Assembly: GCA_963677485.1 (NCBI GenBank)
Contig: OY781964.1
Location: 128,001 to 192,000, forward strand
Direction: 5' to 3'
Source of the DNA: Armatimonadota bacterium
GTDB lineage: Bacteria > Armatimonadota > HRBIN16
DNA: 64,000 nt
Made by a program: the position numbers and the translations under genes. The notes below the pieces were generated by a model that saw only the letters and a program-made list of their open reading frames with translations, searched no databases and was not told the DNA's origin. This document shows positions 2,849-14,109 of this stretch, piece after piece; position 1 is the stretch's first letter, and each line of letters begins with the position of its first letter.

Positions 2849-3787
2849 ATGAAAACACCATGCAAAATGCTGCTCGCTATGGCAGTCCTTATCATCCCAG
2901 CGGTTCACTCCAATGCGGTCGTGATACCCACTACAATGACCCGAGGATATACTGCCGAATACGACACATCATCAAAGGCGCTTCGCTGCATCTCGGCGAA
3001 CGGTTCAAATAGCTGGGCGGCCTCTGTGGCATCGCCTGTGCCCAGTGTGGGTGACTGGTCGGGTATCGGAACCGCTGCTGGTCCGGTTTTTGTTTACACA
3101 GCCGGTAATTCGGTTTACTACACGCTGCTGCGCCACAACACCGGTAAGGCGATTACAGACGTGGGTAACAAGTCGCTGACGGGCGTTCTTGCCCCTGGAA
3201 AACTCATATCTGCGACCTGGCGAGAAGCCAGCTACGGCGCTGAGGTATCTGTAGTGTCCTTAGATGGCAACAAAGAATACACCACCATATTCGACATCAA
3301 CATGCGGGGCACCAGCACCAAGAAGGGCCAGACCTCACGCAGTCTGCCCATCCAGCGAATTACGATTCCTGGCACGTCCGTCTCGTTCGAGCTCCCACCT
3401 GGGTTTACCAACGCATGGGATGCCAGCAATCAATCGATGGGCATAAAATCACAAAACAAGCTGCCTGTGGGCATACTCATCAATGTGGCTGAACAAGATG
3501 ACAATATCACGCTGTTTGCGGACCTGTTCATGAAGGACATCGGCCCTGCCATGGGTGCACAGAATATGCAGCAGATCGCCTCGCAGCCTGTATCTATCGG
3601 CGGTTCTATGCAGGGTCTGCTGAGGATGACTTCATGTGTGTGGAACGGCCGCAACGCCAACTTCTCTTTCGTATTTATCAAAACAAAAAGCAACCTGCTT
3701 GTGGTTGTCTACGGCACGCCAACCGAAAACTACGACACCTACGCCAACCTGTTCTATCGCATGCTTTCGAGTATGCAAGTTAAGTAA
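2849..3787 (+). CDS. Secreted hypothetical protein with PsbP/DcrB-like C-terminal domain
   Basis: 312 aa, signal peptide ending SNA, starts 5 nt after the previous stop. C-terminal pattern SFELPPGF...VVVYGTPTENYDTYANLFYRMLSSM. Confidence 0.6.
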   Translation: MKTPCKMLLAMAVLIIPAVHSNAVVIPTTMTRGYTAEYDTSSKALRCISANGSNSWAASVASPVPSVGDWSGIGTAAGPVFVYTAGNSVYYTLLRHNTGKAITDVGNKSLTGVLAPGKLISATWREASYGAEVSVVSLDGNKEYTTIFDINMRGTSTKKGQTSRSLPIQRITIPGTSVSFELPPGFTNAWDASNQSMGIKSQNKLPVGILINVAEQDDNITLFADLFMKDIGPAMGAQNMQQIASQPVSIGGSMQGLLRMTSCVWNGRNANFSFVFIKTKSNLLVVVYGTPTENYDTYANLFYRMLSSMQVK

Positions 3788-6658: not shown

Positions 6659-9322
6659 ATGCAGAAACCGACAAAACTGTCCGAGTATCCGGTGCCGTCA
6701 AGTTTCGTACTAGGCAATGCGCCGTTCATCAATACCTGGCTCATTACCGACCCTATTAGTAACTCATCACCGGCCACGATGGACCAGCACCCGGAAGCCA
6801 TCCAAGCCTGCCAACCGGCACCCAAACGGGCATTTGGCTCCTCGAAGTGGTATGTGTTCGACGACCGTGTGTTCAGCCGCAACTACGACGACTACGTGGA
6901 TCTGTTCAGCTATTTCCGGGCGAAGCGCAACCTTCCGGTGGCGGGAGCGGCGATCTACGCGGCGGTCTGGCTATGGTCGCCGTCGGCCACAGCGGCTCAG
7001 GTGCGCATTGGTGCTGATAACATGTTCCGCGCCTGGTGGAATGGGCTGCCCATCGGCTCAGCCGACCATGCCAACACCACCGGCGATCCGAACCCACCAG
7101 CACCTGGTGGATGGCCTAACAGTTATTACTGCGTGAAGTCTGACAACGCCGGTAAGGACATGAGCCAGCTCGCTGTTCAGATGAAGCAGGGCTGGAACCT
7201 GCTGATGCTGAAAGTCGGCAACAAAGAAGAGGGCTTGTTTGGGTTCTATGCCCGTATCTGCCAACCCGACGGCAATGCGATACCGGGTCTGGTGCCCAGC
7301 CTGGCCGGCCCTGATCAGCCGCTACAGACTGCACTGGCCGACATGCCGGGTGTCGCCCCTGATTTACCTGTGGCTTTCACCGAGTGGCCATATGTTCACA
7401 CCAACCATCCACTGATAGCCGAAGCTCTGTCCATCTGGCCAGAAGGGCACCAGATGTGGGCCCACGCGGCGCAATCCAGCGAGTTCAGGCTCTCCGCGGC
7501 TGGCGGTCTGCCCCCGTATCACTGGAAGCTCACCGCGGGACGGCTGCCGAAGGGCATGAAGCTGAATGATGACGGCATCATCACTGGCCCGGTGGACATG
7601 AAGCAACCGCTGGGCACCTTCCCGCTGGCGTTCCGAGTAACCGACAGCACCGGCAAGACGGCCACCGCACGCACCATGATCACGGTGAAAGAACGCCCGA
7701 ACCGCAGGTATGAAACGGCCCGACTGAACGCACTCATCCACGCGCCGGATAAATACAACCCACCGGACTGGCCGAAACTCGCCCGGATCATGAAAGACCA
7801 GGGCTACACCTATGGGATGCCCATCGGATATGGCAACGGCGACTGGTATTTCCGATTCCGCAACCGGTTTGACCCGAATGCCCCCACCGCGGGCGCTCAT
7901 GACCTAGTCAAGAAGGCCCTTGAGGCTGAGGGGCTGAAGTATGGCATCTACCTGGGCAACATGCATGATTCGCCTCAGTTCAAATATGAGCAGGTCATTC
8001 TGATGATCGAGGATGCCTGTAAGCAGTATAAACCAGCCGCCTTCTGGCTGGACTGGCTTGCCATAGACCAGTCGTCCCTTGACGCCATCTACAGCATGGT
8101 GCGCACTATGCTGCCTGACACATTAATGATCGTCAATGGCGTGGAACGCCCTACTCATGGCGACTGGGATATCTGCTGCGTCGAAGAGTTCTCATTCGTC
8201 CCAGACCAGCGGTGGGGCCGATGGCCCAACGATGTGAAAGCCAGTGCCATGGAGATACTCAAATCCTGGCCAAAAATGCACATGATGGAGAGCTGGCGTC
8301 CGATGCTCTGGCCTTGGAAGGGTGATGTTGAGACGGTACCAGAGTGGCAGGACTACCAGCGTGTGGCTATCTCACTCATCGGCGAGGGGAATATCGCCGA
8401 TATGGACCACAGTCCCGGCACAGGTGCTTTCCCAGGCGTGACAGGCGGCGGTGGTGTCACCTTCGACAGCTCCAAACTGATGACGGCACATAACCACATG
8501 GCGGATTGGGCAAGCAAGGATCGGACCGAACCGCTCTACCACGCTTATACCAACATCGTGAACACAACCCTGCCCGACCAGCCTTGGGGATACACCACTC
8601 AGAGCCTGGATGGCCGGTATCTATACCTGCTTACACTTAAGAACCCCAGAGGTAAGACGGGCCTTCCTAAGGCTGGCTTGGAGCTCCATGGGTTGAAAAA
8701 CAAAATCCGCGCAGCCGTCTGCATGAATGATGACCAACAACTCAGTTTCAAGCAATCCAACAGCGGTCTGAAGATCGATACATCCGCGATCACAGAAGAC
8801 CCCATCTGCACCATCATCAAGTTGACCATGGTCACCTCCCTGCCCTTGCCTGAGCGCAAGATGCAAGAGCCTGTATTCCATGACCGCATACCCTCCGAAG
8901 GCAATCTAGCGAAAGCCAAACCAGCCCGATTGCTGAGTGTGGATGGAACCCGCGACCTGACCCCCAACATGGAGGTCTGCTACGCCAGCCTGGCGGTCGA
9001 TGGTCTTTCTGGCACCGCAGCGGTCGGATCCGGCGACTGGGCCTGGGCTCTGGAAGTGGACCTGTTGAAACCAGAAACGGTCGGCCATGTCAAGGTTCTG
9101 TTCGCAGCAGGATGGGCTACCAGCTACAAAATCGGCCTGAGCGAAGACCGCGTTCAGTGGAAGACTGTCGCCACGGGGGCCGGAGCCAAGAACGCCTGGC
9201 GCGAGCACCGCTTTGCCGCTATCAAGGCCAGGTACGTGCGCATCACCGCCATCAAACCCGATGGCGAGAACCAGGAAGGCACGCAGATGGGCATCGTCGA
9301 TCTGCAGGTCTATCCGAAGTAA
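6659..9322 (+). CDS. Tandem paralog of 3984-6620 (GH29-like / He_PIG / F5/8 type C)
   Basis: Collinear with the upstream gene along its whole length (shared blocks NYDDYVDLFSYFRAKR, GYGNGDWYFRFRNRFDPNA, NGVERPTHGDWDICCVEE). Confidence 0.6.
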   Translation: MQKPTKLSEYPVPSSFVLGNAPFINTWLITDPISNSSPATMDQHPEAIQACQPAPKRAFGSSKWYVFDDRVFSRNYDDYVDLFSYFRAKRNLPVAGAAIYAAVWLWSPSATAAQVRIGADNMFRAWWNGLPIGSADHANTTGDPNPPAPGGWPNSYYCVKSDNAGKDMSQLAVQMKQGWNLLMLKVGNKEEGLFGFYARICQPDGNAIPGLVPSLAGPDQPLQTALADMPGVAPDLPVAFTEWPYVHTNHPLIAEALSIWPEGHQMWAHAAQSSEFRLSAAGGLPPYHWKLTAGRLPKGMKLNDDGIITGPVDMKQPLGTFPLAFRVTDSTGKTATARTMITVKERPNRRYETARLNALIHAPDKYNPPDWPKLARIMKDQGYTYGMPIGYGNGDWYFRFRNRFDPNAPTAGAHDLVKKALEAEGLKYGIYLGNMHDSPQFKYEQVILMIEDACKQYKPAAFWLDWLAIDQSSLDAIYSMVRTMLPDTLMIVNGVERPTHGDWDICCVEEFSFVPDQRWGRWPNDVKASAMEILKSWPKMHMMESWRPMLWPWKGDVETVPEWQDYQRVAISLIGEGNIADMDHSPGTGAFPGVTGGGGVTFDSSKLMTAHNHMADWASKDRTEPLYHAYTNIVNTTLPDQPWGYTTQSLDGRYLYLLTLKNPRGKTGLPKAGLELHGLKNKIRAAVCMNDDQQLSFKQSNSGLKIDTSAITEDPICTIIKLTMVTSLPLPERKMQEPVFHDRIPSEGNLAKAKPARLLSVDGTRDLTPNMEVCYASLAVDGLSGTAAVGSGDWAWALEVDLLKPETVGHVKVLFAAGWATSYKIGLSEDRVQWKTVATGAGAKNAWREHRFAAIKARYVRITAIKPDGENQEGTQMGIVDLQVYPK

Positions 9323-9330
9323 TCGCTTGA

Positions 9331-9360
9331 GTGTTGGCCGTCGCGTGCGACGGCCAACAC
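9331..9360. terminator. Perfect 14-bp inverted repeat after the GH29-like pair
   Basis: gtgttggccgtcgc-gt-gcgacggccaacac, starting 9 nt after the stop. Confidence 0.6.
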
Positions 9361-9466
9361 ACCAGACCGCGCAGGTGATAGTCTGAACCACGGATTACAC
9401 GGATTGGAACAGATGGATCCGGATCGGGGGGAAACCACACCGGTAAAATGAAAACATGTATGCTTC

Positions 9467-9574
9467 CGCTGCCGCGACATCATTGTCTCGGCTATTGATC
9501 ATCAAGTCCGTTGAAACGGACTGCGGCACTTCGTGCCGTTTGGGGTAAGGTGCCCCAGGCTGCTTCAGCAGTCT
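9467..9574. repeat. Left part of a palindromic REP/REPIN-like element split by the IS110
   Basis: 9467-9498 is an inverted repeat of 11396-11427 (30/32). Internal hairpins agtccgtt-ga-aacggact and ggctgc-ttca-gcagtc. Confidence 0.75.
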
Positions 9575-9688
9575 TGTAAGTAACCTTTATACGGCGATCA
9601 TACCACCTATTGGGTATAGAATGCCTGTCGGAGCTGCCTATGCACTTCTCCGATAAAATTGTGCTTGAAAGCATCGAAAATCAAATGG

Positions 9689-11128
9689 TCAGACGGCTTC
9701 GATCAGATCGAAACCTAACTTCTTGGCCCTCTTTCTCATGGCTGCAACTTGATGAGACTGATACCTCGCTTCGTAATCCTGAACCCCAAGATCAACGTAT
9801 TGCTGGCCGTCTTTTAGCAGATGGTAGTACATCCTGGCGATTTTGTATGCGGTGGCATAGAGAGCTTTAGGCTTACTGATGCGAGCCGCTAAGCGTCTTT
9901 AGAAAGCACCGTAAGCATTATCAGAACGTATAGTCGCAACGGCCGACTGCAGAAACAGAACGGCCGCAGGATGTATGCCAGGCCGGGTACGGCTCGATAG
10001 CCGTTTACCTCCGCTGATCTTCTGAACCGGCGCAAGACCAAGGTATGACCCGAAATGTCGATCCGTTTTCCACTTATCCATGTCGTAGCCTAACATAGAC
10101 AGAAGGCCCAGAGCTGTGAGACCGCCGATTCCTGGTAGCTGGGTTGGGTCTACACCCAGAAACAGTGTCACCATCGCACCAGCATTAAATGGCGGTGGAT
10201 GTTTTCCCTGGTTGACTGGGTGGGTTTCCAAGCTAACAGCTTCCGTGATCTGATCATCATTCTCAGGCATGATCGCAGTAAGATGCTGTAATATCTGAGC
10301 ATCGATCTGAGCGATTTGAGCCTGATGGAAAAGATGGTCGTTTCGGGCTATCTTGAGAGCAAACACCAGGTGGGGTTGGTAATACCCTGTCAAAGCCGCA
10401 TAAAGCTCTTCATCGGTGCAGTGACATCGATGATCGCGATATGACGCCAGTTTGACTGGATCACGCTCTCCATTCACGATCGCGTCCACGATACGCTGAC
10501 CAGTCACTCCATCCAGGTCGCTTATTACCTGGTGCGGGCGCAGATTCATCATATCCAGAGCCCTCTGCTGGCGACGGACCGCATCACCGCAGAATTCCAC
10601 TTGTTTACTTCGTTGGTGCCAGAATTCTAGCAACGGGCGAATGTCTTCGCTCGGGCGAAACGAGGCTGAAAGCAAGCCGAATTTATGCAGCTTCTGTAAC
10701 CAACGTGCGTCTAGCTTGTCATCTTTCGGGCGTCCAGGAACATTCTTAGCATGGCTTGGGTTCACCAGAAATACTTCGATGCCGGCCTTCTCCAGAGCAT
10801 CGTACACCGGAATCCAGTAGACACCGGTCGCCTCCATCGCCACCGTAGTCACGGCATGCGATTTCAGATACTCAACCCACACCGTCAGATCCGGGGTCAT
10901 TCCCCCCACCTCTATGACCTCAAGCTCTGTTTCACTGATCTCCAGAGCGATGAAGTGAGCGCCGCGCCCTGCTAGGTCAATGCCCGCTGCATTGCGGTGG
11001 ATCACCTGGAGATCCTCTTTTGGATAATGAGCTACGAACCGAGGGGCCGGTACACGGCGCGACAACAGGGAGTGGGAAGGAGGCTTGGCCTCTACAGGCG
11101 AGTTGTCTTTTCGAGAGTGCTGTGCCAT
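9689..11128 (-). pseudogene. IS110 DEDD recombinase/transposase with one in-frame nonsense codon (TAA 9899-9901)
   Basis: Motifs GIDL, MEATGVYW, KDDKLD, LPGIG, GLAP..ISGGK. ATG at 11128 with GAGGA RBS. The frame continues past TAA as RRLAARISKPKALYATAYKIARMYYHLLKDGQQYVDLG...RKRAKKLGFDLIEAV to TGA 9689. Confidence 0.9.
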
Positions 11129-11160
11129 TGTTTGATCCTCACACTTAGAAATATGAACAC

Positions 11161-11320
11161 ATCTCGAGCCGGAAAGGCATATGCGTGAAATCTTGTAATC
11201 GGGTTCACTCGGGTTCGCCACCGAGCACTACACCATCTGGCTGATCAGCCACCTTTCCGCCCCATGCTTGTTAACGGGCTATTATGCACCAAAGACTGTC
11301 CGGGGATGCTGTCAAGAGAT
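11161..11320 (-). ncRNA. Putative IS110 bridge RNA with target-binding and donor-binding loops; ends approximate
   Basis: Two modules with shared (T/C)GGTG...CCCG scaffold carry CAGTCT/AACAAG (match target junction) and TGCT/TTACAAG (match donor junction). Stems GGAAAGG/CCTTTCC and ATCTC/GAGAT enclose them. Confidence 0.7.
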
Positions 11321-11389
11321 GTGTGCTATAAATGTACCTGAAACGCATCAGTTACAGTATGGGCTGCCGGGTAGGCACGGGCGGATGCT

Positions 11390-11427
11390 TGTTTGTCAAT
11401 AGCCGAGACATTGATGTCGCGGCGGCG
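11390..11427. repeat. Right part of the REP/REPIN-like palindrome split by the IS110
   Basis: tcaATAGccgagaca-ttga-tgtcgcggc: ATAG-footed imperfect hairpin, inverted copy of 9467-9498. Confidence 0.75.
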
Positions 11428-11538
11428 AGGGCCTCTAGCTTTGATATCCACCGCACCACCCATCTCCGCCCATCGCACGTGAGCCACCATGGTAAAATAG
11501 ACAAAACATCCCAGCACTATCAGAAAGGTTTCTCTCAC

Positions 11539-14109
11539 ATGCATTTTCTGACACGCCCCAGCTTACTGCTTGCTGCGCTATTACTGACTGGCAGCACGCA
11601 GGCTCAGCCCCTGAGCATCAGCAACGACTACATCCGCATCGATGGTGCAGATGGCGTCATCAAGTCGCTGCGAGTATCATCCACACCCAAAGGCAAGCTC
11701 AGCGATAACATCATCAACGGCTTTAGCCTATTCTCGCCGGTAGCGAATAAATCGGCCAAAGTAACCATAGATAAAAAGTCCCATACCATGCGTATACAAA
11801 ACGCGGCGTATGGCTTGACACGAATCATCGAGTATCCAACCACTAACCCATCATACCCGGTGGAATTGAAACCAGGCGGAGTGTTGGCACAACAGATACA
11901 ATTCAAGTCAGGCCGTATCCGCCGCGTTGCTGCACAATGCCCCACCTGGAACAAAGGCGACTGCACCGCCACATTCAGCTTATACCGAATAGCCAATGGT
12001 AAAAGGCAGCTCGTATCACAAATGCGTCCCCAACTGGTCGGCGATGGCACTACCGTGTGGCTGGACGCAAAGAACTCCCCAGCGGGCACCTATTCATTTG
12101 AGATGTCTAGTCCCAAAGGCACCATCGGCTGGTGGCAGCCCACCAGCAACGGTCCGGTGCCCGGATCATCATTTACCAACGGACAGGAAGTCAAAGGGAA
12201 ACACTACGCCCTCAAAATTGAGGCTATTCTGACCGGCTATGCGAATGCCGTGTGTAAGTTGGATGGCCCGAAACTGACCATTAACTACCAACCCACCAGC
12301 AAGCTAGGTGACGCGAAACCCTGGATTTCCGTGAAGATGGGCTGGGTCAAGAACGGCTATGATGTCAGCAGCCCGAAGATCAAGTTCAACTATGTGTATT
12401 CCAACAACGACATCGTGGTGCCGGCATACCTATTCAAGCGGCGCACCGAATCTTACTCATGTAATTTTCAATGGTTGCGCTTCAACGGCCGGATCGGTGC
12501 AGACATCCAGATCGAACCTGCACAGATGAAGGCTGACATCAGCGACACCGAGCTGGACTGGCACATCAATGGCACCAGTCTGCGTCTGTCGGTACTCCCC
12601 CACCAGAACGGTTACCCAAAGCACCTGACCTCGTTCGACAGCAGCAATCCCAAGCTCACAAACCCCATCAACGAGTTCTTATTCACGCACAACTACAGCC
12701 ACGATATCGGGGTGAACCCAGACTGGGCTGACTGGATGAGCGCGCAGATGTGCTACACCACAAGCCGACAGGCAACCCAATATGAAGGGGTGATCAACGG
12801 CCATTACATCCAGCCGAACGGCTATGTCAACTCGTGGGGATCCATGCCCGGCTGGCCATTCCCCTTCGCCGATGCGAACGGCGACGGGTTAAATGACCTG
12901 GACACCCGCCACATGCCTACCAATCCTAACCTGATCATTGGGTCACAGAGGCTGGCCGCCTGGAATGGCGACAGCAGCTATCTAGCCACAGTGGTCAACC
13001 GCGCACGTCGCGCCATGGAGTTCATGTTGATTGACCTTGGCGGTAAGGATGGCTTGTTGGTCATCGACTACCCAGGTCTGCAGGGTCGCAACAACGAGTT
13101 TGGCTCCAACTATTGGGACATCACGCCGTTCGGTTATAAATGCGCATTCACCAACAGCATCTTCCCACGATCCCTTGAGGCCATGGCTGTGCTGGAAGAG
13201 ATGATAGCGGCCGATCCGAAGGCCCAGAAGCTTCTACCCGCCACTTCCCTACCATCACGTGATCCAGGCTACTACCGGGCTCTAGCGAAAACCGCGGTCA
13301 AGAAATACAACGAGATCTTCTGGCTTGAGGATAAGAATCGCTACGCAGGCTGCATCGACAAAGACGGCACAGTGCATGACTACGGCTTCACCTTTGTCAA
13401 CCTCCAGGCGATGGCCTTTGGCGAAGCCAGTCCAGAGCGTGCGCGACGGATATTCAACTGGATGGAGACCGGCACCAGCTACACGGGCAAGCAAGACATC
13501 ATCAGCAAACACGTCTTTGCCATGCGCGCCAGTGCAGAACTGAATCCATCAAAGACGGCTTCACAGACACCTAAGCCAAGTTGGTGGCACCGCGATTGGC
13601 CCGGCACCGACTTTGAGGAGCAATGCCAGGCAGGTGGGGCTATTCTATACACCACAGCCCATGAAATCATGGCGCGGCAGAAGCTACTGGGCACCGAAAA
13701 CGCATGGAGCCGCTTCAAGCAGGTTCTTGGCCGCTACATGCTTGGTGACCGCCTCTCCGGTGGAAGTCCACTTATCACCGGGCAGACCTCTCAGGGCGGT
13801 CCTGGGGGCACTGCAGGGGCATGTGGCATCGAGGGTGAGTTCCCCGAAAGCGGTCTGGTGCCCAGCCAGTTCCTATATGTATTCATGGGCATCGACGCCA
13901 GCAAAGACGGCCTGCGGATCGCGCCAAACCTCCCGACCGACCTAAACTGGGCGAGCGTGAAAAACATGCGCTGGGATAAGCTGGTTTGGGACGTGCGTGT
14001 CGACCGTCAGCAGATCACCATGAAATGCCTGACGAAAGGCCATCAGCAGACCATCACCCGCCCGTTGGCTTCAGACGCAGTGACCATACGCCGCGATGAG
14101 GTGAAATAG
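11539..14109 (+). CDS. Secreted six-hairpin (alpha/alpha)6 glycoside hydrolase-like protein with GH65-like C-terminal domain
   Basis: Likely ATG at 11539 (AGAAAGG RBS), signal peptide ending TQA. Motifs SNYWDITPFGYKCAFTN, KYNEIFW, DYGFTFVNLQA, C-terminal MGIDASKDGLRIAPNLPTDLNWASV. Confidence 0.6.
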   Translation: MHFLTRPSLLLAALLLTGSTQAQPLSISNDYIRIDGADGVIKSLRVSSTPKGKLSDNIINGFSLFSPVANKSAKVTIDKKSHTMRIQNAAYGLTRIIEYPTTNPSYPVELKPGGVLAQQIQFKSGRIRRVAAQCPTWNKGDCTATFSLYRIANGKRQLVSQMRPQLVGDGTTVWLDAKNSPAGTYSFEMSSPKGTIGWWQPTSNGPVPGSSFTNGQEVKGKHYALKIEAILTGYANAVCKLDGPKLTINYQPTSKLGDAKPWISVKMGWVKNGYDVSSPKIKFNYVYSNNDIVVPAYLFKRRTESYSCNFQWLRFNGRIGADIQIEPAQMKADISDTELDWHINGTSLRLSVLPHQNGYPKHLTSFDSSNPKLTNPINEFLFTHNYSHDIGVNPDWADWMSAQMCYTTSRQATQYEGVINGHYIQPNGYVNSWGSMPGWPFPFADANGDGLNDLDTRHMPTNPNLIIGSQRLAAWNGDSSYLATVVNRARRAMEFMLIDLGGKDGLLVIDYPGLQGRNNEFGSNYWDITPFGYKCAFTNSIFPRSLEAMAVLEEMIAADPKAQKLLPATSLPSRDPGYYRALAKTAVKKYNEIFWLEDKNRYAGCIDKDGTVHDYGFTFVNLQAMAFGEASPERARRIFNWMETGTSYTGKQDIISKHVFAMRASAELNPSKTASQTPKPSWWHRDWPGTDFEEQCQAGGAILYTTAHEIMARQKLLGTENAWSRFKQVLGRYMLGDRLSGGSPLITGQTSQGGPGGTAGACGIEGEFPESGLVPSQFLYVFMGIDASKDGLRIAPNLPTDLNWASVKNMRWDKLVWDVRVDRQQITMKCLTKGHQQTITRPLASDAVTIRRDEVK

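What the first reader, a model, noticed from the sequence alone, without database searches (positions are those of the whole stretch)
9569..11393. IS110 element with a readable bridge RNA whose four guides match its own target and donor junctions
Seen: junction reconstruction gives an empty target cagcagt-CT-tgtttg and a circle-junction donor gcggatg-CT-tgtaagt (+ strand). The upstream non-coding end, read on the - strand, has two tandem modules of the form guide-(T/C)GGTG...CCCG-guide. Module 1 carries CAGTCT (11298-11293, equals left target plus core, 9569-9574) and AACAAG (11272-11267, complement of core plus right target, 11388-11393). Module 2 carries TGCT (11227-11224, left donor plus core, 11386-11389) and TTACAAG (11198-11192, complement of core plus right donor, 9573-9579). 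The bases following the right guides (CA and AU) could pair with the partner DNA after strand exchange. Established: IS110 elements such as IS621 use a bispecific bridge RNA with a target loop followed by a donor loop, a CT core and 'handshake' pairing. Inference: this is a natural programmable recombinase system with its own scaffold, longer right-hand guides, and the CT core on the antisense strand relative to the CDS. The mechanism class is known; this instance may be new.
Basis: partly seen in the sequence, partly recalled or inferred. Interest (0 to 1): 0.88.

Follow-up and report, generated by a model that had tools for sequence, protein, structure and literature searches.

The report
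IS110 insertion sequence with bridge RNA
This is a 1.8-kb mobile element whose own small RNA carries short guide sequences that match the DNA it sits in and its own ends. It is a clear natural example of an already known RNA-guided recombinase system, and this copy has a broken enzyme gene.

Summary
The element is an IS110-family insertion sequence of 1815 bp on the minus strand, sitting in a REP-like hairpin unit.

**Confirmed beyond chance:**
- Three of the four proposed guides: both target-loop guides and the 3' donor guide.
- The two-base handshake after the 3' target guide.
- Evidence: natural guide/flank covariation across seven copies in two genomes, plus about 30 distant homologues whose RNA a covariance model finds.

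**Not confirmed:**
- The 5' donor guide (TGCT) lies in a hairpin stem and changes without the donor changing.
- The donor-loop handshake (AU) shows no covariation.

**Corrections to the reading:**
- The scaffold is not unique. It is a conserved twin-module fold, also visible in Pseudomonas relatives.
- The CT core on the antisense strand is real. It equals the AG ends published for ISPpu9, so it is not new.
- The window's transposase gene has an in-frame TAA. Copy C in the same genome has TAT there and is intact.
- A family of 18 miniature elements shares the ends.

Verdict: a new member of a known kind, well documented, of moderate interest.

The parts
9573..11389 (-). IS110-family insertion sequence, 1815 bp, shown here with both copies of the CT core (9573-9574 and 11388-11389). 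One CT belongs to the element and one to the target.
   Evidence: Three-copy alignment in the own genome. Four more copies in a same-genus genome. A contig joins 9572 to 11388, skipping 1815 bases.
9689..11128 (-). Transposase gene of 480 codons, broken by an in-frame TAA at 9899-9901 (codon 410). Copy C of the same genome has TAT there.
   Evidence: ORF list and translation. Pfam PF01548 at 63.7 bits and PF02371 at 47.6 bits. NCBIfam NF033542 at 192.4 bits against a cut-off of 140. E100, D138, D141 and S373 align to IS621 E60, D102, D105 and S241. TAT in copy C and in related RNA-library contigs.
11157..11324 (-). Bridge RNA, closed by a basal stem (11324-11316 pairs with 11165-11157).
   Evidence: RNAalifold on 5 sequences found 3 compensatory pairs in the basal stem. 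On the 45-row alignment 93.4% of cells pair against 66.2% when shuffled, and 38 of 40 pairs change on both sides (alignment fitted to the model).
11260..11305 (-). Target-binding loop: stem CCCCG/UGGGG, 5' guide CAGUCU (11298-11293), UGGUGC...GCCCG hairpin (11291-11275), 3' guide AACAAG (11272-11267) and handshake CA (11266-11265).
   Evidence: Guide/flank covariation in copies A/B, C, D/E/F and G. Clade-wide tests.
11170..11259 (-).
   Evidence: for the stems. for the 3' donor guide. against the TGCT guide.
9560..9574 (+). Left target half: a hairpin (ctgc ttca gcag) ending in t-CT. cagt (9569-9572) is matched by the 5' target guide.
   Evidence: 85 REP-type units in the genome have variable hairpins before CT.
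11388..11422 (+). Right target half: CT-tgtt, followed by the conserved REP-like part tcaatagccgagacattgatgtcgcgg.
11343..11387 (-). Outer 45 bp of the left end: terminus CAT, a DNA hairpin with compensatory changes among the miniature elements, and a subterminal inverted repeat GTAACT (11355-11350).
   Evidence: This segment is kept in the miniature elements. Inverted repeats sit at this position in 25 of 28 homologues.
9575..9586 (-). Outer 12 bp of the right end: donor half-site TTACA plus the inverted-repeat partner GTTAC (9584-9580 on the minus strand).

Best explanation
The stretch is one copy of an IS110-family insertion sequence. It lies on the minus strand inside a REP-like hairpin unit between two genes.

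**The RNA and its guides.** The left end encodes a bridge RNA of about 170 nt with two similar modules.
- In the first module, CAGUCU pairs with one strand of the left target half plus the CT core.
- In the same module, AACAAG pairs with the other strand of the core plus the right target half. The next two bases, CA, match the element's own end, as a handshake guide would after strand exchange.
- In the second module, UUACAAG matches the element's right end.

**The left end of the donor.** It is probably recognised mainly through a DNA hairpin, a subterminal inverted repeat and at most a 2-nt guide (inferred).

**Polarity.** Relative to IS621 the recombination site is inverted with respect to the RNA and transposase genes. 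The core therefore reads AG in gene sense, as in ISPpu9.

**State of this copy.** The window's copy and its twin carry a nonsense codon. They can probably move only with transposase from the intact third copy, while using their own RNA (inferred).
For: **Family.**
- Pfam PF01548 and PF02371 match, and NCBIfam NF033542 'IS110 family RNA-guided transposase' scores 192 bits.
- The catalytic E, D, D and S residues align with IS621.

**Ends.**
- Seven copies share them.
- Empty units exist, as does a joining contig.

**Guides, local copies.**
- 3' target guide against left-end flank, in gene sense: AACAAG in A/B with flank AACAAG; AGCAAG in C with AGCAAG; UCAACAAG in D/E/F with TCAACAAG in E/F; AGAUAG in G with AGATAG.
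- 5' target guide against right-end flank: CAGUCUU with AAGACTG; CGGUCUU with AAGACCG in F (one mismatch in D/E); CCUCCUU with AAGGAGG in G.

**Guides, clade-wide.**
- The own 3' target guide 6-mer lies 30-130 nt upstream of the RNA in 33 of 42 rows, against 26 of 1684 for foreign guides.
- The own 3' donor guide 7-mer lies at the right end in 30 of 33 rows, against 58 of 1207.
- The 5' guide against the right flank gives 76 of 128 matches, against 38.5 +/- 4.7 when permuted (0 of 5000 permutations reach it).
- The handshake matches 27 of 28 rows at position 1 and 18 of 28 at position 2.

**Fold.** 93.4% of cells pair, and 38 of 40 pairs change on both sides.

**Polarity.**
- The IS621 locus is described as 5' LT-core-RD(LE)...LD-core-RT 3', with the 5' guides pairing the bottom strand (PMC11208160 and PMC11208158, passages and one section read).
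- Here the 3' guide equals the gene-sense flank of the left end.
- ISPpu9 recombines at AG in tnp sense.

**Transcription hint.** A 369-nt contig from an RNA library covers 11067-11375 of the D/E/F-type variant.
Against: - There is no direct proof that this RNA is made. The RNA-library contig may come from contaminating DNA, and it belongs to a related variant.
- The sigma-70 scan found 0 promoter-like sites in 9500-11450.
- The single-sequence fold is no better than shuffles, with z = -0.16.
- No Rfam family matched.
- The 5' donor guide is unresolved.
- Copies D and E have one mismatch to their 5' guide.
- In distant homologues only 6 of 32 right flanks match the 5' guide at 4 of 4 positions.
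- The transposase gene of this copy is truncated by 71 codons.
- Junctions in the distant homologues were defined by the guide match itself. Only the foreign-guide controls, position -7 and the handshake are therefore independent.
Confidence: 0.85

Rival explanations
1. The structured left end is chiefly a cis-acting 5' untranslated region that controls translation of the transposase, as reported for ISPpu9. On this view the matches to the flanks are secondary.
For: The RNA lies directly upstream of the start codon, on the same strand. The ISPpu9 paper describes a structured 5'-UTR that inhibits tnp translation (PMC12288879, passages read).
Against: A UTR role does not explain why the loop letters change together with the flanks in four natural variants and across the clade. 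In four or five homologues the same RNA lies downstream of the gene, where it cannot be a 5'-UTR. The two roles can also coexist.
Confidence: 0.07
2. The guide matches are coincidence. The transposase protein itself recognises the REP-like hairpin, and the RNA plays no part in site choice.
For: The individual matches are short, at 4-7 nt. The 10-mer CAGTCTTGTT occurs 10 times in the genome, about as often as chance predicts. All insertions lie in one repeat family, which has a hairpin next to the core.
Against: Foreign guides hit the junction windows in 1.5% and 4.8% of trials, against 79% and 91% for own guides. Copy C and copy G carry changed guides together with correspondingly changed flanks.
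Confidence: 0.03
3. This copy is an inert relic. Its gene is broken, so it no longer moves, and its RNA is a fossil.
For: There is an in-frame TAA at codon 410 of 480, where relatives have TAT. The lost part aligns with conserved C-terminal helices of IS621.
Against: Copies A and B are 100% identical over 1815 bp, share the TAA, and lie at two different loci. Both sit in TGTT sites that fit their own guide rather than copy C's. This suggests the element moved after the mutation, using transposase supplied in trans. Gene conversion between copies is an alternative I could not exclude. The RNA region has no disabling change compared with copy C.
Confidence: 0.25

Closest known systems
ISPpu9 / ISPpu10 of Pseudomonas putida (IS110 group, REP-targeting)
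   Same: - Insertion is into REP/BIME-type hairpin repeats.
- An AG dinucleotide sits at both ends in tnp sense.
- About 43 bp of the left end and about 16 bp of the right end carry the end functions (here about 45 and 12 bp).
- A palindrome lies close to the left end, with a similar one in the right target half.
- A partner miniature element exists (MITEPpu9). All of the above are from PMC12288879, passages read.
- ISPpu10 has a mapped bridge RNA, a target stem-loop requirement, a tolerant left target guide and a strict right target guide (bioRxiv 10.64898/2026.03.19.712850, passages and one section read).
- Pseudomonas loci in my set show the same twin-module RNA (by eye). I could not confirm that they are ISPpu9 or ISPpu10.
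   Different: - The transposase is only about 35-37% identical to the Pseudomonas homologues.
- The host lineage and the repeat family are different.
- My covariance model did not reach the Pseudomonas RNAs.
- No junction promoter is evident here.
- Figures and supplements of these papers were not visible, so I could not compare guide positions letter by letter.
IS621 of Escherichia coli (bridge RNA, solved structures 8wt6 and others)
   Same: - It has a DEDD plus serine recombinase, with the catalytic residues alignable.
- The RNA lies in the left end, with the target loop before the donor loop.
- The 5' guide has the sense of one strand and the 3' guide is complementary to it. Both include a CT core.
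- A two-base handshake guide follows the 3' target guide.
   Different: - Sequence similarity is only distant (E 4.8e-11, partial alignment; 480 aa against 328 in the solved chain).
- The recombination site is inverted relative to the RNA and transposase genes.
- The guides are shorter (4+2 and 4-5+2, against 8-9 and 4-7 nt in IS621).
- In IS621 the long donor guide is on the 5' side; here it is on the 3' side.
- A basal stem closes the whole RNA.
- There are 6-11 bp subterminal inverted repeats instead of the 2-3 bp reported.
IS1111-type elements with seekRNA (ISEc11 and relatives)
   Same: - The top-strand-complementary segment precedes the bottom-strand-complementary one (PMC11187229, passages and two sections read). 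That is the order seen here in gene sense.
- Subterminal inverted repeats are present.
- In four or five homologues of this clade the RNA lies downstream of the gene, as in IS1111.
   Different: - Here the RNA is upstream of the gene.
- The transposase is 480 aa, against 330-350 aa reported for IS1111 types.
- I had no named IS1111 sequence to test relatedness directly.

Membership tests
IS110 family (DEDD transposase insertion sequences) | Transposase with an N-terminal RuvC-like DEDD domain and a C-terminal Tnp domain | tested here: met
   PF01548 (E 2.2e-17) and PF02371 (E 2.3e-12). NF033542 at 192.4 bits against a cut-off of 140.
IS110 family (DEDD transposase insertion sequences) | Catalytic D, E, D, D residues and the serine of the G--P----SG motif | tested here: met
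   E100, D138, D141 and S373 align to IS621 E60, D102, D105 and S241 (allowing for a 2-residue offset in the solved chain). The first D is inferred from AGIDLA at the start of the Pfam match and was not aligned. In the window's copy all of these lie before the TAA at codon 410.
IS110 family (DEDD transposase insertion sequences) | Site-specific insertion without target duplication beyond the shared core, and no terminal inverted repeats | tested here: met
   Seven copies and the empty units. Only CT (CTTG in this lineage) is shared at the two junctions.
Bridge RNA / seekRNA-guided recombination | A non-coding end encodes a structured RNA with conserved pairing | tested here: met
   The covariance model finds it in 39 of 80 distant loci. 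38 of 40 pairs change on both sides.
Bridge RNA / seekRNA-guided recombination | Target-loop guides covary with both flanks of the insertion | tested here: met
Bridge RNA / seekRNA-guided recombination | Donor-loop guides match both ends of the element | tested here: inconclusive
   The 3' donor guide covaries with the right end (30 of 33 rows, 11 distinct 7-mers). No 5' donor guide could be shown. TG before the core is invariant in 18 of 18 miniature elements, which fits a guide of 2 nt plus the core but does not prove one.
Bridge RNA / seekRNA-guided recombination | The RNA is expressed, binds the transposase and is required for recombination | not testable with these tools
   The only hint is one RNA-library contig of a related variant over the region.
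IS621-type geometry | CT core in the sense of the RNA and gene, with the left-end flank equal to the 5' guide | tested here: not met
   Here the left-end flank equals the 3' guide and the core reads AG in gene sense.

The most novel reading that the evidence does not exclude
The element belongs to a widespread, long-transposase IS110 clade with four distinguishing traits.
- Its recombination site is inverted relative to IS621.
- Its ends carry IS1111-like subterminal repeats plus a DNA hairpin on the same side of the core in both target and donor.
- That hairpin takes over most of the role of the 5' donor guide.
- The same RNA scaffold can lie either upstream or downstream of the gene.

This would make the clade a link between the IS110-type and IS1111-type layouts. 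In addition, the broken copies A and B appear to have moved using their own RNA with another copy's protein. That would be a natural case of a guide acting independently of its linked gene.
Probability: 0.3. Interest if true: 0.6.

Novelty: new member of a known kind. Interest (0 to 1): 0.42.

Why it matters
Bridge RNA systems are in use as genome-editing tools, and natural diversity shows which parts can vary.

- **Natural reprogramming.** Four natural guide variants sit in matching sites in two related genomes.
- **Compact target code.** The target is read as 4 + 2 + 4-5 letters next to a hairpin.
- **Donor recognition.** The donor end seems to be read more by DNA shape than by RNA.
- **Miniature elements.** A family of them is available as natural cargo-free substrates.

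None of this changes the known mechanism. It does offer a well-annotated orthologue outside the model hosts, and a set of about 30 mapped relatives for comparison.

Tried and rejected
- **Rfam.** Rfam 15 over 9000-12000 gave only a chance snoRNA hit at E 0.85.
- **Single-sequence folding.** It was uninformative, z = -0.16.
- **Promoter scan.** It found nothing. By eye, a -10-like TA..AT box lies about 7 nt before the RNA in many homologues, but I did not test this.
- **5' donor guide, four attempts.**
1. Its variants in C, D/E/F and G are all transitions at G-U pairs, so they argue neither for a stem nor for a guide.
  2. GAUG just before UGGUG fits copies A and G but not D/E/F or the distant homologues.
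  3. AGCAUCC near the 5' end repeats the left terminus in the same sense, and is not general.
  4. A position-by-position covariation scan gave only lineage signal.
- **Polarity in print.** I looked in five papers, by text passages and some sections and in three literature searches. ISPpu9's AG ends and the reversed segment order in IS1111 types are in print.
- **Closest named element.** The best plasmid matches were unnamed 'IS110 family transposase' genes at up to 43.6% identity.
- **RNA-library runs.** X4 and X5 covered only parts of the gene or the flanks. Parts without cover mean nothing.
- **Host.** I did not try to name the host organism.
Full report
**What is there.** Window 9573-11389 holds a 1815-bp element on the minus strand.
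- Its long open frame runs from the ATG at 11128 to 9689. It matches the two Pfam domains of IS110-family transposases and NCBI's model 'IS110 family RNA-guided transposase' at 192 bits against a cut-off of 140.
- A sequence search of solved structures finds IS621 transposase at E 4.8e-11. In that alignment E100, D138, D141 and S373 line up with the catalytic E60, D102, D105 and S241 of IS621.
- The frame is interrupted once, by TAA at 9899-9901.

**Ends and target.**
- The genome holds three copies. Copy A is the window's. Copy B is 100% identical. Copy C is 97% identical, and has TAT where A and B have TAA.
- All three sit in the same kind of repeat unit: a short hairpin ending in ...cagcagt-CT, then the element, then CT-tg..-tcaatagccgagacattgatgtcgcgg.
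- A same-genus genome, G003, has three copies at 94% (D, E, F) and one at 71% (G).
- At the locus orthologous to the window, G003 has the uninterrupted unit ...GCTTCAGCAGT-CT-TACTGGTCAATAGCC... twice.
- The own genome has 85 units of this right-hand type. Three of them are uninterrupted and read exactly CAGT-CT-TGTT. The bare 10-mer occurs 10 times, as chance predicts, so only the context counts.
- A contig from an RNA library joins 9572 to 11388, skipping 1815 bases.
- In copies A-F the two junctions share CTTG. Copy G shares only CT (AG in gene sense), which fixes the core.

**The RNA.**
- Aligning A, C, D, F and G gives a fold with four parts: a basal stem, a first arm (stem, internal loop, UGGUGC-loop-GCCCG hairpin), a second arm (long outer stem, small hairpin, UGGUG, distal hairpin, ACCCG), and a 3' single strand.
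- A covariance model built from these five sequences was run on 80 loci fetched with the transposase. Those loci encode 32-44%-identical proteins from many phyla.
- The model gave 40 matches in 39 of the 80 loci at E up to 0.02, nearly all just upstream of the gene on the same strand.
- On the resulting 45-row alignment 93.4% of cells pair, against 66.2% after shuffling and 33.5-45.2% when partners are slid by 1-3 columns. 38 of 40 pairs change on both sides. That alignment was fitted to the model, so it leans towards the structure.
By eye, Pseudomonas homologues have them too.

**Target guides, in gene sense.**

| Copy | 3' guide of loop 1 | Flank of the left end |
|---|---|---|
| A/B | UUAACAAG-CA | AACAAG\|CA |
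| C | UUAGCAAG-CA | AGCAAG\|CA |
| D/E/F | GUCAACAAG-CA | TCAACAAG\|CA (E, F) |
| G | AAAGAUAG-CA | AGATAG\|CA |

| Copy | 5' guide | Flank of the right end |
|---|---|---|
| A/B/C | CAGUCUU | AAG\|ACTG |
| D/E/F | CGGUCUU | AAG\|ACCG (F); AAG\|CCCG (D, E, one mismatch) |
| G | CCUCCUU | AAG\|GAGG |

The left end of copy D abuts the right end of a miniature element instead of a target.

**Target guides across the clade.** These tests use the 42 rows that could be parsed, of the 45 aligned.
- The row's own 3' guide 6-mer lies 30-130 nt upstream of the RNA in 33 rows (23 distinct 6-mers). Foreign guides do so in 26 of 1684 trials.
- The four bases after the right-end AG are complementary to the 5' guide at 76 of 128 positions in 32 non-redundant rows. 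Permuted pairings give 38.5 +/- 4.7, and 0 of 5000 permutations reach 76.
- The first two bases after the AG of the 3' guide equal the first two bases of the left end in 27 of 28 and 18 of 28 rows, against 17.4 and 8.2 when permuted.
- Position by position, the 3' guide reaches one base further (19 of 26 against 9.4) and then stops. The 5' guide covers four flank bases plus the G of the core.
- In most distant homologues an A stands opposite the A of the core. The window's element has a full CU.

**Donor guides.**
- UUACAAG equals the last seven bases of the right end in all seven local copies.
- Across the clade the own 7-mer is found after the gene in 30 of 33 eligible rows (11 distinct 7-mers), against 58 of 1207 for foreign guides. 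It always sits in the context GTT(T/A)C-TTNNN-AG.
It reads UACU in C and CGCU in D/E/F while the donor end keeps TG-CT. It also lies in the stem of the distal hairpin.
- I found no better candidate.
- In its favour, all 18 miniature elements keep TG before the core while the base before that varies.
- The AU after the 3' donor guide is a conserved A(A/U)U. It shows no covariation with the flank, matching 11 of 32 rows against 9.4.

**Other end features.**
- In 25 of 28 mapped homologues a 6-11-bp inverted repeat lies 5-7 bases from the right terminus and at positions 31-39 of the left end. In the window it is GTAAC(T), at 9580-9584 and 11350-11355.
- Between that repeat and the left terminus lies a DNA hairpin. 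Its arms change in a compensatory way among the miniature elements.
- The target also has a hairpin on the same side of the core.
- This mirrors the palindromes reported in the ISPpu9 A box and in its 3' REP fragment, and the target stem-loop requirement of ISPpu10.
- I infer that hairpin and repeat carry much of the recognition of this half-site, which would explain the very short 5' guides.

**Polarity.**
- For IS621 the papers state that the locus reads 5' LT-core-RD(left end with the RNA)...LD-core-RT 3' with a CT core. [quoted passage not shown]
- Here, in the sense of the RNA, the 3' guide is identical to the flank of the left end and the 5' guide is complementary to the flank of the right end.
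- The geometry becomes IS621-like only when the DNA is turned over, which puts CT on the antisense strand. This is true of the whole clade.
- It matches two printed observations. ISPpu9 recombines at an AG at both ends in tnp sense. In IS1111-type seekRNAs the top-strand-complementary segment comes first, the reverse of ISEc21.

**State of this copy.**
- A and B share the TAA, are identical over the whole element, and lie at different loci. Both sit in TGTT sites that fit their own guide. Copy C has the AGCAAG guide and sits in a TGCT site.
- The simplest reading is that the broken element moved once more, using protein from C with its own RNA. Gene conversion is an alternative that I could not exclude.
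- Contigs of related variants in RNA libraries read TAT at this codon.

**Expression.**
- The only evidence is a 369-nt contig in one biofilm metatranscriptome. It covers 11067-11375 and carries the D/E/F-type guides.
- Such libraries can contain DNA, so this is a hint only.

**Verdict.** This is a correct and careful first reading of a genuine bridge-RNA element. Three guides and one handshake are confirmed, and one guide and one handshake are not. It is a new member of a known kind, closest in design to ISPpu9 and ISPpu10.

Noticed in passing
own genome G000 (e.g. C1:3299286, 1577324, 2749987); window 11344-11422 is the matching end: A family of 18 miniature elements, 143-288 bp long, carries the IS's outer 12 bp of right end and about 45 bp of left end around a palindromic core. 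Many sit in the same REP-like units. One sits in an exact CAGT-CT-TGTT site. 8 of the 18 have TGTT on the right, while the left four bases vary widely.
   Followed up: partly
L071 and L081 (RNA 2911-3070, gene 1501-2856), L079, L099, second hit in L087: In these homologues the same RNA scaffold lies downstream of the transposase gene, about 90 nt before the right terminus, as in IS1111-type elements. In L079 the target and donor 3' guides are identical. Its 2362-nt contig repeats a right-end/left-end junction 2053 nt apart, as a tandem or a circle would.
   Followed up: partly
window 9374-9574 and 11395-11430; G003:C1:5211850-5212560: The intergenic region is a cluster of repeat units of about 280 bp, each ending in hairpin-CT-T....TCAATAGCCGAGACATTGATGTCGCGG. 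The hairpins differ between units by compensatory changes. The own genome has 85 such right halves, and G003 has two extra tandem units at the orthologous place.
   Followed up: partly
L067, L066, L096, L088, L090, L107, L110, L074, L101, L094 (flanks of the elements): Elements from Acidobacteriota, Bacteroidota and other phyla sit in a shared target of the form tgtcatNNNNag|cg..gcgaggga. The left flank resembles the elements' own right ends (GTCATTAGCAG|), as if target and donor left halves carry a common motif beyond the guide-paired bases.
   Followed up: no
L112 (copy D of G003), left junction: The left end of copy D directly abuts the right end of a miniature element (GTTACTTACAAG|CACCC). 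This is a donor-like junction in the chromosome.
   Followed up: no
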